DNA of 64,000 nucleotides from Rhizodiscina lignyota (taxonomy: Eukaryota): contig ML978128.1 of the NCBI GenBank assembly GCA_010015805.1, positions 248,001-312,000 of the forward strand, given 5' to 3'. The position numbers and the translations under genes were made by a program. Numbering within the stretch: position 1 is the first letter of the stretch; every line of letters begins with the position of its first letter. Positions 29,597-55,968 of the stretch are shown one piece after another. The notes beneath the pieces are model-generated. The model was not told the origin of the DNA. It searched no databases and was given only the letters and a program-made list of their open reading frames with translations.

Positions 29597-30446
29597 TTTG
29601 TAAAATTGCGCTTGAGGTGTGGCAATTATTGATAGAAAACGGGTGCTTTGGACAGTAGAGAGATTGAGCACGCGAAGGCAATCTGTTTGGGGAGAATAGG
29701 ACAGTTCCAAAACGCTCACTCGACTAGGTACAGACCATTGCCCTTAAACAAGTCGCTAGGCCTTTAGAAAAATTAAAATTATGGCACAGGTAAGGCGTTT
29801 GGATGGGAATATAGTAGCTGTGAAAACACGAGATGGACTTCCACGGCATGCCGTCGATTGTGTGATTATAGACTAACCCCAATCCAGCTGAAAATACGTG
29901 CGTTATTTTTGACCCCTTGTCGGAACATTCGAAACCTCCCAAGTGGGCGACAAAAGAGTTGAGTCGCAGCTGTAGTATATCCTCGGAAGCTACTCTAGAT
30001 TATATATATTAGAACTACTTGTTTTAGATAAATATTATCTAGCGTCTATTTACTCAAACTTTTAGAGATGCTCTTATTCGTGTTGAAGAACAGATTCGTC
30101 CTTACTGCAGGCTGCAGCCGTTCAGTTAATCGGGTTCAACTATTTTGTCACGCACGTGTCTCCGAATACGGGTACTGCAGGAGTCACGTAACAGGAGCCA
30201 TCGAGATCCTTCAAAGATCGCCTTGAAACACTCATCGAGTATCGTACTGCGCCCCCAAAGTGTAGGTTCTGTAAGAATGGCTGCCTTGAACACCAGCGAA
30301 CACTGCGTGCCAATATCCATACGTAGAAGTGTGTTCTTGCCTAACACCAACACTTCATTCTCCTCACCCTTTTCAATGTCCATCACTTAACAGCATATAT
30401 GTTTTGACAATGACATTCACTTCCATGCTTCCTGTCTCACCCGAAG

Positions 30447-50874: not shown

Positions 50875-51757
50875 ATGGCGTCGCCTAACCTGACGCCTGA
50901 CTTTGCTCCAGCTGACCTCGCGACATCATCTCCCTTCCACAAGGAGGTTGCCGCTCTCGAACTTCTTGTGCTGCGTAAGTCGTTACTCTCATGCCCTCAA
51001 ATATACATACCAATACTTTTACGTACAGCAAGGCAACGCGAAATTCATCTACCGTGGTCTCTTCAATGAGTTCCAGATCATCCTGGGACAAGCTCCACTA
51101 GAGTCCGCTGGTGCCGAAAATGCGATCGATGGTGCTAGCCACACCTCCTCGCGCTCCGCAAGCCCTCTCACGACGCCTTTACCCAACTTGTCTCCAACAA
51201 TCGCGGCCGGCAATGACGCCGAGGTCGAGACCGACCCCCTTCCCTCCTCCTTCCATCCTCAACGACTCTACGCAGCTCTGATCGGCATCAAGCCCACGGC
51301 ACTTCATAGCCCTGGAAAAGAGAGCCTCCTCCTTCGCACTTATCCCTGCATCGACGAGTATTCCGCCAAACGGGAGCTCTTCGATCTCACCGTCGTCGAG
51401 GTCGACAACCGTCTCTCCGCCTCCGCCAAGCTCAAGATCTCTCTCGAGAAGCTTGCCACCAGCGCCAAGGCCATCTCTGAGCTCCCAGACGGCTGGAGGA
51501 TGCTCATCCACGAGACATACGGCATGATCTGCTTCGCGAACGACAACCTCACTGGCGACGAGCCAAAGGTGACCTTCCAGCTGCCTGGCTACGAGAAGAA
51601 GGCGAGGCGCATCGCGGTCAAGGTCCCAAAGCAGGAGCTGATCGACGAGACTATTGCCGAGTTCAAGCTGCCGTCGGAGGGTGGTGACAGCGGTGCGACT
51701 GGTGCGGCTGGTGCGACTGCTGAGAAGAAGTCTTGGTATCTTTGCATGGTGATGTGA
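50875..51757 (+). CDS. Hypothetical protein ending in a CaaX box (KKSWYLCMVM)
   Basis: TATA-like TATAAAT at about 50780, CAAAATGG start context, GTAAGT donor at 50975 (in-frame acceptor probably AAG at 51032), C/G-ending codon bias, stop 51755-51757. Confidence 0.75.
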
Positions 51758-52052
51758 AGGGTTGGTTCTAACCGCATTTGGGGGTTGATGGCTTCCTTTT
51801 TCCCTCTTCAGGCATAGCGAGGATGTTGGGCGAGGCACTGGCGCCTTGAGCATCCACTTTAAGCAAGATAGCTTAAATGAATCAAAAGTGATTTCTCAAC
51901 TCTGTGTTCGATGCAACTAGTCATAACCATTTCACTGTGATATATTGGATATTTGGTAAGCTTGGTAGATCTGTCGAGACACTACTATGCTAAGAAGTAT
52001 TTGAGACTTTACAGTCCGCACTTGCGCTCTCGAGGAGCCTCCGGCCAATCAC

Positions 52053-52710
52053 GAACAGATACTCGACGGCCGTCGCTACAGCAGCAATTTTTAGACTTTG
52101 GAATCGCGAGCAGATGTTCGACGGCCTTCGTCACAGTCGTGATTCGCCATCCTACTGAGACTCCTTTAACAATTCAAAATCTGTAGCCTTACACCCAAGA
52201 AGATCCTGAGCTATCTCAAATGGATGCTGGAAGACCTTTGTTGGAGTCGTACTTCTTGCAGTTAATCATATCAAAGATGCTCAATGATCTTTACTGCAGC
52301 ATTTGCACTTGATCGTACTTGAAGCTAATAGATCCTCGAGACTTTCTCTGTAGTAATAGTTCTCAATCCGTGCTATACCAAGCGTATGTTTGACGGTCTA
52401 CGTCGCTACAACAGTTCTTCATCCGAGGTACACCAAACAGATGCTCGACACAATGTGTGGTAGCAGTAATTCTCAATCAGAAGTATAGCGAATTAATGCT
52501 CGAATATCTGTGCCGCAGCGGAACTTCTGAATCAGAGCTGTAACAAACATGTGCCTGACGACGATGCGTACAGCTGTAATTCTTAAGCATCGCTACAGCG
52601 AACAGATACTCAATCGACAATCCACAGCAGTAATACTCACTCCTAGCTACATTGAATAGAGGTTCAACGCGCACGAGTGCAGCATTAATTATTCATGGGA
52701 CGAGTTATAT
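52053..52710. repeat. Diverged tandem array, about 12 units with a 55-bp period
   Basis: Anchor ATGCTCGA-like motif at 52059, 52114, (52169 decayed), 52224, 52277, 52332, 52386, 52441, 52496, 52551, 52606, 52660; consensus about RAACAGATGCTCGAC-N11-CAGCAGTAATTCTYAATCC-N3-CTAYANC. Confidence 0.85.
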
Positions 52711-52834: not shown

Positions 52835-55800
52835 TCAATATTCCGCCAAGATCAATCTCCTTCCAATCTCTCTCCTCCTCTCCGCCTTTTCACTCGGGCG
52901 CCCATCGCCGTCCTTGTCCGCCTTGAGTGCCGATAGGAGCATGCCGGCGTCGAAGAAGCCGTCTATAAAAGGAAATTGAGAGTCAGCCCACTGCTTTCGA
53001 CTCCGCAGCGACTATTTTCGTGATGTGGGTGGTGATGCGTGCGAAGAGTAAGCAAAAAAAGACTTGTGAAGGAAAAGAAGAAGCAAACGCTGGGGGCGAG
53101 TCTAGTCTAGTTCTATATGCCAGATGCCCGTTGAAGACCGCTCGCAATGCAATGCAATAAAGACGCATGAAAAAAGAAACAAATAAAGCAAGAGCATCAC
53201 AGAAAAGCGTGCGGATGATGCACACTCCCATTCCGCCCATCCCTCGTCAACCGCCTCCCTCGCTTGAACTCCGGCTTCTTCGGCGAGCTTAAAATGCTCG
53301 ACACGAAACGGGGTGGCGAGGGCTCGGGTGTCGGAAGGCCATCCTGGAACACCGTTTTAGGTGTCGGAGTCTGCGGTCGATGCGCCTCTGCGTCGCTCTT
53401 GCTCTCTGTGCGGAAGGTTCGAATGGGGATCGGGGAAGTGTGTGTTGGTATAGAATCGGGTGCAAAAATAGGAATGAATCGCCTACATCCACCGAGTCCT
53501 TCATCATCGCTTTCCTCAAACTCATCCTCTTTGGGTGTCTGCGCCTTGCCTTCACCCTTCAGATCGCCCGTAATTATACGTCCTCTGCTCTTCATCCTGC
53601 CTGCCTTGGACTTGTTCTCCTCCGCCACTCTCGCACGACTGGCGCTTTTGTCTACGCTCGATCCACGCTTGTTGAGTTGACGCAACAATTTCCTGATCTC
53701 GAGGAAATACCCCTCCAGAGCATCGACGAAACGCTTAGTCTGCCGGTGCTTGGAAGAGGCGCAGATGGACACGCTACCGTCTTTGATGATGTAGCCTATG
53801 CCGAAGCCATCGCCGCTCGTCGGGCCGAAGCCGAATTGTCGAAGGGATGGATTGCCGCAGTTCGAAGTGGATAGGATGGTATTGTTTAATTTGTCCCAGC
53901 CTGCGTCTGCGAATAGTGCTGGCATTGAATGGCTGTGCTGCTGATGTTGGGGGGCTGGCGGACTTGATGATATAGACCCTTCGTCCGAAACGAGGGTGTT
54001 GTTCCGATTCGGCGAATTGACATTCGATGGATTGTCCGATGAGTTGATGGGACTGGTGCGACCGGTGGACGTTTCGTATGAATTGTTGCTCGCCACATCG
54101 AAGTTCTCGTCATCAAGAGAGCGTTGCCAGATGCAGTAAAGTGCATACATATGCCTATCCTGTCCTTGTGCCTTCGCGCATTCCTTTGTGACTCCAACAT
54201 GTTTCTCGCATGCTCGTTTCAAAGTTTCGACCTTCTTGCTTGCTGGATTCTCACCCCAGAATGTACGTATGAAATCCAGAGATTCTACGGTTACCGATCG
54301 GATGGCTTCAGTGCGCCCATGGTAATAGAACTTTGTCATAGCGGGTTCGTACACGCACTCAACGCGACCATAAAGGCCGTAGTACGCTGCTTGAAACGCC
54401 ATTTGCACGAACGCATCTGGCGAGAATCCCATGGAAGTCATGAAATTCTTCCCGTATGATTGAAACTCAAGGGTCTCAAACTCATTTTGAGCGATCAGGT
54501 CGGCCAGTCGCGTCTCTGCAAAGCGAAGTGCAGTGCTCAGTTCGGGAACCATGTCCCACTCCAATTTATGCGGAGTTGTCGAAACGTCTCCAAAGCTCTC
54601 AGGGTCGCGCTTTGACGGATCAGGACTTGTCGATGTCCACAGGCTCGGTGCTTGCCCATTGATGGATCGCGCGAATCGCAGGATAGTGTCCGTGTAGATA
54701 TCGCTTGCAAATCTCAGTACGGTGTGACCATCAACGCCGGTGTGTTCGAAATTGATCCCAGCACTGCCATTCTTGCACACAATAATCTGCAGCTTGTCGT
54801 ACCAGCGGTTGGTACAAGTCCCGACTTGTACACCTTTCTCAATCTGGCTTGAGCCGCAGAGCATGTTCATGCACAGTTCTGCGGTGGTCTTAGGTGCGGT
54901 ATAGTCGAGGCATATAATGAACAAAGCTGAATCAACAATGTTGAGACAATCGGAATTGTTAGACCCCTCTTCTCTTTGCAGCACGTCCCGTAGACCAGAC
55001 CAGACCTTTCGGTTCTCAGTGCTCAAAACTCCAACTGCGCCTTTGGCTGCCTCCTGAATCGGAACTTGAGACGCGTCATCAACGATGACTTGCAGGTTCA
55101 GAGCGACATCCTTCTCAGTCATGATCAAGTCGGAGTTGTCGTCCAGCACATCAAAGTAATAGAATTGGCCGTGGCACATAACAACGACGTGTTTCGACTC
55201 GGGATCTTGGCCAATTTGGCATCCGTGTTCCGTTGGTATCCTTGCTGTACCGAACAGCCTTGAATATTGGTACATATCCAAAGGTTGTCCCCTTATCATG
55301 TCTGGTGGCAGTTCCTCCCTTCTGACAGCTCGAACAAACGACAGAGCTGAGATGACCAAAGAAGCGGCTCTTGTGACCTGATTGTTTCTTGCAGGTGTGG
55401 GATCATCTTCAAGGAGGAAGAAAGGATTCAGGTTGAGGACGACAGGATTATCGTAGTTCAGGTAGGAATCATACCCTGCGATTAGTATCTGTTAGTGTGA
55501 CGCACGAAAGACTAAATGAAGATTATCAGCAGTCGTTGAAGGTTGCATACAAAATTGCTCGATGTAGTTGGCTCTGCCACTGGCATACTTCTTAAGCTTC
55601 TCTTGTAAATCTGGGCCATCGCGCTTGAGAAACTCTTGTACGGCAAGCTCCGAATCATGTTGCTCTTTCGCAGATTGCAGCGGCTTCAACGCCTCTAGGT
55701 ATTTCTTGCATGAGCTCTCTAGCTCGGGTATTGGGAGCTTTGGAAGCTTGTCTTGCGACGCGAAAGTGATGCCCGGCTTCGAGGTACTTTTGTGTGATGC

Positions 55801-55968
55801 CAGTGGTTCTCGTTCACTTGGAGAATAAGATTGAGCGGCCTTTTTAGCAGCCTCTGGCGACCGCGACACGCCATCCATGTGAGGCATCTCGCCTGTCTTC
55901 AAAGTGACCAAAGAACTGACTGATTCGTCGAGAGTTGGTGCAGGGGGTATGAACGTCCTGACTGCCAT
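52835..55968 (-). CDS. YAT1: Carnitine O-acetyltransferase, Yat1/FacC type, 3 exons
   Basis: TFASQDKLPKLPIPEL, LNYDNPVVLNLNPFF, TCTNRWYDKLQ, FEHTGVDGH, STSNCGNP, GFGPTSGDGFGIGY; last exon YGFFDAGMLL...ILAEY* after intron 52963-53486. Confidence 0.93.

What the first reader, a model, noticed from the sequence alone, without database searches (positions are those of the whole stretch)
52053..52710. Cryptic diverged tandem array with a strict 55-bp period
Seen: 12 units with anchor spacings 55,55,55,53,55,54,55,55,55,55,54 between two convergent genes. Examples: gaacagatactcgacggccgtcgctacagcagcaatttttagactttggaatcgc (52053), aaacagatgctcgacacaatgtgtggtagcagtaattctcaatcagaagtatagc (52435), gaacagatactcaatcgacaatccacagcagtaatactcactcctagctacatt (52600). 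No two units are identical; two conserved blocks alternate with more variable stretches, and length is kept despite heavy substitution. No long ORF explains it. Inference: constrained length suggests function (phased protein-binding array, processed small-RNA array, or cassette reservoir) rather than a neutral satellite, though an old satellite is not excluded.
Basis: partly seen in the sequence, partly recalled or inferred. Interest (0 to 1): 0.8.

Follow-up and report, generated by a model that had tools for sequence, protein, structure and literature searches.

The report
Dispersed 55-bp repeat family in fungus
This odd row of 55-base units is one of about twenty related, old non-coding arrays scattered behind genes in a fungal genome; some of them ride inside small jumping elements, so it is most likely a transposon-spread repeat whose short shared motif and fixed spacing once served, and may still serve, as a protein docking pattern.

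Summary
The array is real (lag-55 self-match 0.38, shuffles at most 0.32) and longer than reported: 14 units, 51943-52708, of two unit types. It is not unique: at least 21 homologous arrays lie on 13 contigs of this Dothideomycete genome. Across subfamilies only a 14-base box and the 55-bp period are shared; the rest is at random identity. Multi-unit blocks were copied between loci after their units had diverged. At two loci the units join, in the same phase, the arm of an abundant ~234-bp MITE; one 974-bp composite has terminal inverted repeats and a perfect 5-bp target duplication. The window array itself has no terminal repeats. No ORF, Rfam hit, consensus fold, RIP signature or partner gene; no RNA data; no array in 80 orthologous loci of distant fungi. 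Against a MITE-calibrated indel rate, length constraint is marginal in the window (P 0.07-0.27) and significant family-wide, with ascertainment caveats. Best reading: old transposon-spread tandem-repeat family with a phased protein-binding box. A host function at gene 3' ends (18 of 20 arrays lie behind a same-strand gene) is not excluded. The scan noted one sister array before (e1-7566109) as an isolated relic.

The parts
51943..52708 (+). Whole array: 14 units of 53-55 bp, member of a dispersed family (strand = the orientation in which box 1 reads as in the other arrays)
51943..51997 (+). Extra upstream unit, degenerate R-type; 49% like the first R unit of the C9 array
51998..52052 (+). L-type unit; with the next unit it forms the block best kept between loci (82% over 55 bp with C9:493.5k, 78% over 49 bp with C4:318k)
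52053..52162 (+). R-type units 1 and 2
52163..52217 (+). Second L-type unit, 165 bp after the first; 52102-52242 is colinear with the C9 array (67% over 141 bp, one gap)
52218..52708 (+). R-type units 4-12, mean identity of the 11 R units 52%
52435..52448 (+). Clearest copy of box 1 (unit positions 1-14), the motif shared by all arrays of the family; logo
50876..51757 (+). Upstream neighbour: 274-aa protein of a small fungal family ending in a CaaX-like motif; no Pfam match; not part of the array
52835..55968 (-). Downstream convergent neighbour: carnitine acyltransferase (PF00755); last exon ends about 127 bp from the array

Best explanation
The array is a relic of an old family of 55-bp tandem repeats that was spread through the genome as multi-unit blocks, at least in part inside non-autonomous cut-and-paste transposons (MITE-like elements with terminal inverted repeats and 5-bp target duplications). 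Shown: the family, its two unit types and 110/165/220/275-bp higher-order repeats, block copying between loci, and carriage inside one element with intact ends. Inferred: box 1 is the binding site of a protein, most simply the transposase, and its 55-bp phasing was kept by selection on mobile master copies, as for subterminal repeats of foldback elements; copies survive mainly just behind genes because insertions there spare promoters; the window copy is so old that its element ends have decayed or were lost, and it now does nothing for the host.
For: At least 21 loci on 13 contigs. Colinear multi-unit blocks between loci: 130 bp at 88%, 241 bp at 69%, 141 bp at 67% (the window with C9), 112 bp at 70%, 127 bp at 64%, i.e. 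closer than units within an array (52%). An abundant MITE (40 places scored, lower bound, 68-86% to the query; six of ten two-ended measurements 222-241 bp) is joined to R units at L144 (twice), L148 and L267, always replacing the MITE's left half near the same profile position 115-124; at L144 and L148 box 1 lies 159, 214 or 269 bp from the element end, one phase. L144:1453-2426 runs from one terminal repeat to another over 974 bp, carries R units and has identical 5-bp flanks. One MITE copy differs from its sisters by an insertion of exactly 55 bp. Flanking genes have unrelated functions. No array in 80 orthologous loci of distant fungi, 40 of which hold 2 kb or more behind the match. Precedent: dispersed short arrays carried by non-autonomous elements (PMC7492417, passages); subterminal repeats bind transposase (PMC5499845, passages).
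Against: The window array has no terminal inverted repeats (0 of 22 array spans showed a pair at the array ends; two had nominal P 0.015 and 0.03 for matches about 200 bp away; both controls were found) and no MITE arm. Only 3 loci (2 of the 21 firm ones, plus marginal L267, which is 6 bp out of phase) are tied to the MITE. The MITE consensus itself does not score as R units (three-unit sum -10, shuffles up to 11), so the MITE may have captured, or landed beside, arrays that were already there. No autonomous partner: 4 hAT relics, 1 DDE_1 match, no MULE; none has MITE ends or arrays within the 6-10 kb fetched. Boxes differ less than other positions even between colinear copies (18% against 31%, P 4.5e-4), indels between copies are scarce (3 against 10.9 expected, P 0.005, blocks chosen by a gap-averse aligner), and 18 of 20 arrays lie behind a same-strand gene; these could mean selection at the present loci.
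Confidence: 0.55

Rival explanations
1. Host-recruited phased binding arrays. Whatever their origin, the arrays are now docking platforms for a host DNA-binding protein placed at gene 3' ends (termination zones, nucleosome phasing, insulation or chromosome organisation); three units make 165 bp, about a fungal nucleosome repeat (recalled).
For: Window against 16 arrays outside its own subfamily: box 1 identity 0.59-0.76, rest 0.24-0.29 (units were chosen by box score). Next box found freely 40-70 bp away in 28 cases: all at 53-55, 22 at exactly 55. 42 of 54 adjacent spacings are exactly 55, against 41-55% expected (P 4e-4 or less). 12 convergent, 7 tandem, 1 divergent context; 18 of 20 behind a same-strand gene (my assignment; P 2e-4). 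165-bp higher-order repeats at the window, C13, L280, L295.
Against: Orientation is automatic in convergent gaps; in tandem gaps it is 6 of 7 (P 0.06). Many arrays are broken, truncated or interrupted by other repeats. Units with large indels escape detection, which inflates the exact-55 share. Absent from distant fungi at this locus. Higher-order periods also include 110, 220 and 275 bp.
Confidence: 0.2
2. Neutral old minisatellite family: a 55-bp unit amplified locally and was scattered by occasional copying (circles, ectopic repair, capture by MITEs); box and period persist only through common ancestry, a low indel rate and the way arrays were found.
For: Indels are rare in this genome's relics (0.031 per substitution among 22 MITE copies); the window array alone does not depart clearly from that (P 0.07-0.27). 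With blastn, array alignments show about 0.036 gaps per mismatch (my sum over 21 alignments) against 0.041 for the MITE. All searches selected for box 1. No RIP signature, transitions/transversions 2.1.
Against: Box excess holds in colinear blocks with ends trimmed and in five contiguous runs where no unit was chosen by score (box 1 0.59-0.77 against 0.42-0.64 for positions 16-37). Subfamilies saturated outside box 1 all keep 55 bp.
Confidence: 0.17
3. Array of small RNAs or guides (TIGR-like or CRISPR-like): transcribed as a read-through of the upstream gene and cut into 55-nt units whose variable parts guide a protein.
For: Two boxes alternating with variable parts; arrays usually lie in sense orientation just behind a gene. 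Two local minus-strand folds in the window reach z about -4 (52495-52604, 52000-52164; 2 places among 80 windows tested).
Against: No consensus structure for R or L units; 94 units fold as shuffles on both strands (mean z -0.19 to +0.25); 1 of 18 L units has z below -2. No Rfam match. No Nop-domain, nuclease or other shared gene beside the arrays. Variable parts are homologous between units, not unique spacers.
Confidence: 0.05
4. Tandem mini-intron plus micro-exon cassette: each unit is a ~53-nt intron and a 2-nt exon.
For: In the window most R units carry an acceptor-like triplet followed two bases later by a donor-like hexamer in some units, and 55 bp is close to local intron size.
Against: The homologous C4 units and other subfamilies lack these signals; no good branch site; donor dinucleotide present in only about half of the window's units.
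Confidence: 0.02

Closest known systems
Dispersed satellite-like arrays carried by non-autonomous elements: Cg_HINE of Crassostrea gigas (PMC7492417, passages read), Pearl and DTC84 MITEs (named in those passages; PMC3879986 seen as listing and start of abstract only)
   Same: Short tandem arrays scattered through gene-rich DNA; arrays sit inside small non-coding mobile elements; unit families diverge between element subfamilies.
   Different: Fungal; unit 55 bp rather than 140-180 bp; units far more diverged (about 50%); carrier seen here has terminal inverted repeats and a 5-bp duplication, not Helentron ends; most arrays have no detectable carrier; one short box and the period are kept across subfamilies.
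Subterminal tandem repeats of foldback-type transposons (Muta1 MULE; PMC5499845, passages read)
   Same: A short conserved motif repeated at fixed spacing with more variable linkers near an element end; copy number varies between non-autonomous derivatives.
   Different: Muta1 repeats are 12 bp with 3-4-bp linkers inside symmetric long inverted repeats and 8-9-bp duplications; here 14 bp every 55 bp, on one side only, 5-bp duplication, and no transposase identified.
hAT5 elements (5-bp target duplications; mentioned in PMC12730594, passages read)
   Same: 5-bp duplication in 2 of 8 two-ended MITE loci, 4 of 5 bases in a third.
   Different: No hAT transposase relic in this genome carries these ends; superfamily unassigned.
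TIGR arrays (PMC12045711, passages read)
   Same: Degenerate fixed-length units with two conserved blocks and two variable parts.
   Different: 55 not 36 nt; no adjacent Nop-domain gene; variable parts homologous; eukaryotic, dispersed, no RNA evidence.

Membership tests
MITE-borne tandem repeat (window copy) | Terminal inverted repeats around the array | tested here: not met
   Flank-against-flank alignment P 0.25, controls found; no match to MITE end profiles
MITE-borne tandem repeat (window copy) | Target-site duplication | tested here: inconclusive
   Element ends cannot be placed for the window copy; perfect 5-bp duplication for the 974-bp sister composite
MITE-borne tandem repeat (family level) | Homologous units inside an element with inverted ends | tested here: met
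   L144:1453-2426; R scores 11-27 bits with a profile trained without those loci, background 99th percentile 10.7
MITE-borne tandem repeat (family level) | Dispersed copies, non-coding, no shared flanking gene | tested here: met
MITE-borne tandem repeat (family level) | Autonomous partner with the same ends | tested here: not met
   Three transposase families searched; 0 of 5 matches carry the ends; other superfamilies not searched
Helitron/Helentron-borne repeat (HINE) | Conserved flanking modules shared by arrays | tested here: inconclusive
   No shared flanks in all-against-all alignments; no Helitron family search was run
TIGR-Tas | Adjacent Nop-domain (Tas) gene | tested here: not met
   Pfam scans of 6, 37 and 60 flanking ORFs
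TIGR-Tas | 36-nt units processed into guide RNAs | not testable with these tools
   Unit is 55 bp; no RNA holder listed
CRISPR-like array | Near-identical repeats with unrelated spacers | tested here: not met
   Box 1 identity 0.66, middle 0.44 within arrays
Structured non-coding RNA family | Conserved, covarying secondary structure | tested here: not met
RIP-degraded repeat | A+T-rich, TpA excess, CpA/TpG loss | tested here: not met
   17 arrays pooled: GC 0.47, TpA/ApT 0.74, substrate index 1.18; window array borderline at 0.90 and 1.13
One-per-chromosome centromere element | A single array per chromosome | tested here: not met
   Five arrays on C3, three on C2, two each on C5 and C9

The most novel reading that the evidence does not exclude
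A transposon-derived but host-domesticated system: dozens of phased arrays of one 14-bp site, spaced at exactly a third of a 165-bp repeat, sit at gene 3' ends of a filamentous fungus and bind a host protein that positions nucleosomes, ends or insulates transcription, or organises chromosomes, in the manner of clustered periodic motifs known from animals but not described from fungi in the searches run here.
Probability: 0.15. Interest if true: 0.8.

Novelty: new variant of a known kind. Interest (0 to 1): 0.45.

Why it matters
It shows a repeat class that standard tools miss (Tandem Repeats Finder and BLAST of the array find nothing) yet occupies at least 21 intergenic sites of a compact fungal genome. 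If the best reading holds, it is a fungal case of tandem arrays spread by small transposons, with a preserved ruler-like binding pattern that points to an unknown transposase. If the arrays are still under selection, they define a testable cis-element family at gene 3' ends: one motif, one spacing, many natural replicates.

Tried and rejected
BLAST of the array against its own genome: only itself; the upstream part finds only C9. First pattern hits L005-L011 and L014 held no array. Of 127 own-genome stretches scanned, 16 held arrays and 4 were marginal (L019, L080, L084, L135); L080 was later supported, L019 was not. L267, L282 and L295 (chain scores 10.6-12.7) are not above the best background value of 11.0 and are left out of the count of 21. 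tRNA, Rfam, promoter and terminator scans: nothing. Phage collection: one chance match, E 0.8. No RNA holder listed; the one run laid is a single contig identical to the window and may be this DNA's source, so it is no independent support. Metagenome scan with the upstream protein family found no relative. ESM Atlas gave no usable hit for that protein. Hairpins in L units looked promising by eye but gave no consensus fold. A second MITE family (~220 bp) lies in phase with the C2:2714k array, but its interior does not score above background, so it is not counted as part of the family. Intron/micro-exon and centromere readings rejected as above. Literature searches listed no description of this family (one returned no paper); the library lacks most subscription journals, and Repbase-type catalogues were not searchable. 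No motif scan of the public contig collections was made, so presence of the family in other fungi away from this locus is open.

Full report
Setting. The window is G000:C8:248001-312000 of a 33.4-Mb fungal assembly; a source names the upstream protein as from Rhizodiscina lignyota. The array lies in a 1.08-kb gap between a + strand gene without Pfam match and a - strand carnitine acyltransferase.

Observation. The 55-bp period is real and the strongest in the window. It extends to 14 units, 51943-52708, of two types: R units with a conserved box at positions 1-14 ('box 1', example 52435-52448), and L units at 51998 and 52163. There is no ORF, tRNA or Rfam match and no consensus fold.

A family, not a single array. 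Pattern searches (the 14-base pattern hit 61 places against 13 for the reversed control) and scans of fetched stretches showed homologous arrays. In one search a box-1 profile trained on six loci scored 11 untrained loci at 11.8-82.6 (best site left out) against a background maximum of 5.5 in 50 windows; 10 of the 60 stretches fetched after held arrays. With later finds there are at least 21 loci on 13 contigs, window included; only about 1 Mb of the genome was seen, always around motif or BLAST hits, so this is a lower bound. The C25 array spans 1445 bases and is probably e1-7566109 (inferred from length and unit number).

What is shared. Between arrays, box 1 is 0.60 identical, positions 16-37 only 0.295; within arrays 0.66 and 0.44 (units chosen by box score, which inflates the box values). 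A weaker second box at positions 38-45 resembles box 1 on the other strand (my reading of the logo). L units recur in most subfamilies and mark higher-order repeats of 110, 165, 220 and about 275 bp. Spacing is exactly 55 in 42 of 54 adjacent pairs, and in 22 of 28 when the next box is sought freely 40-70 bp away.

How it spread. Several loci share colinear multi-unit blocks that are more alike than units within an array, so units diverged first and blocks were copied later. An abundant ~234-bp MITE with 15-bp inverted ends (probably e1-7578723) is fused to R units at L144, L148 and L267 near one junction, in one phase at the first two. L144:1453-2426 is a 974-bp unit between inverted ends with identical 5-bp flanks. 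A MITE copy inside a GIY-YIG frame carries exactly 55 extra bases. Against this: the window array and the other spans tested show no inverted ends, the MITE consensus is not itself R-like, and no transposase relic with these ends was found.

Is it under constraint? Using 22 MITE copies as a neutral yardstick (0.031 indels per substitution; a Neurospora mutation-accumulation study gives 231 indels to 1077 substitutions, most 1-bp indels in homopolymers; 10.1101/2022.03.13.484164, passages), the window array is only marginally short of indels (P 0.07-0.27), the family clearly so (P 4e-4 or less for 42 of 54; 0.001-0.08 for 22 of 28; 0.005 for colinear blocks), all with ascertainment in favour of intact units. 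In colinear blocks boxes differ at 48 of 261 sites, other R positions at 115 of 375 (P 4.5e-4). This shows selection on box and period somewhere in the family's history; it does not say whether on mobile masters or on present copies. RIP does not explain the substitution excess.

Position. By my assignment of flanking ORFs (several rest on codon score only), 12 of 20 arrays are in convergent gaps, 7 in tandem gaps, 1 in a divergent one, and 18 of 20 follow a same-strand gene, often within 200 bp of its stop. Tolerance of insertions explains most of this; the tandem cases (6 of 7, P 0.06) leave a hint of more. Neighbouring genes share no function.

RNA readings. 94 units fold as their shuffles on both strands; L units give no consensus fold. 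Two local minus-strand folds in the window (z about -4) are not repeated in other units. No Nop-domain or nuclease partner; unit anatomy does not meet TIGR or CRISPR definitions (passages). Expression is untested.

Relatives. 80 carnitine acyltransferase loci from metagenome contigs (67-82% amino-acid identity; 35 keep the RAD57 neighbour; 40 have 2 kb or more downstream) show no array; best chain score 11.0 from two units. These fungi are distant, so this dates the family only loosely.

Verdict. Real, ordinary in kind (dispersed repeat linked to non-autonomous transposons) but unusual in keeping one box and one exact period across saturated subfamilies. I give 0.55 to the transposon-spread relic with a transposase-type docking pattern, 0.20 to a present host function, 0.17 to neutral persistence, 0.07 to RNA or intron readings. 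The likeness of 165 bp to a fungal nucleosome repeat and of part of P0001 to a WW domain are recalled, not tested. Papers were seen as passages or listings; no supplements were read.

Noticed in passing
window 50876-51757: 274-aa protein with a CaaX-like end and a stretch that looks WW-like (recalled resemblance, no Pfam match); only four credible relatives among 1.84 billion representatives.
   Followed up: partly
window 30056-30156: Probable relic of the ~234-bp MITE's right arm (E 0.006).
   Followed up: no
window ~52965-53480: The last intron of the carnitine acyltransferase gene appears to be about 500 bp, long for this genome; may hold an alternative exon or a small RNA.
   Followed up: no
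window 52495-52604 and 52000-52164: Minus-strand folds with z about -4 among 80 windows tested; not shared by other units.
   Followed up: partly
L144:8527-10000 (G000:C3 ~2835.5-2837k): GIY-YIG nuclease frame (PF01541) interrupted by a 288-bp MITE with perfect 15-bp inverted ends placed just after a donor-like site.
   Followed up: partly
L025:2203-2425 and 2477-2668; L144:7716-7935; L152:2996-3195; L241:6755-6973; L235:3290-3523: Second MITE family of 190-235 bp with 18-30-bp inverted ends; the L144 copy is A+T-rich as if hit by RIP.
   Followed up: partly
L018:1638-1966 (G000:C9 ~1648k): A 329-bp piece of a younger repeat (92% to copies on C9, C3, C7) splits an L unit of that array and leaves the 55-bp phase within 1 bp.
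   Followed up: partly
L066:1201-1806 (G000:C13 ~382k): Clean 165-bp higher-order repeat in which only every third unit keeps box 1.
   Followed up: partly
L016:3790-3960 (G000:C9 ~493.3k): Short-period degenerate repeat just upstream of the C9 array.
   Followed up: no
G000:C2:577.5k and 595.2k: Two hAT dimerisation-domain relics in opposite orientation 18 kb apart, each with three TAG stops.
   Followed up: no
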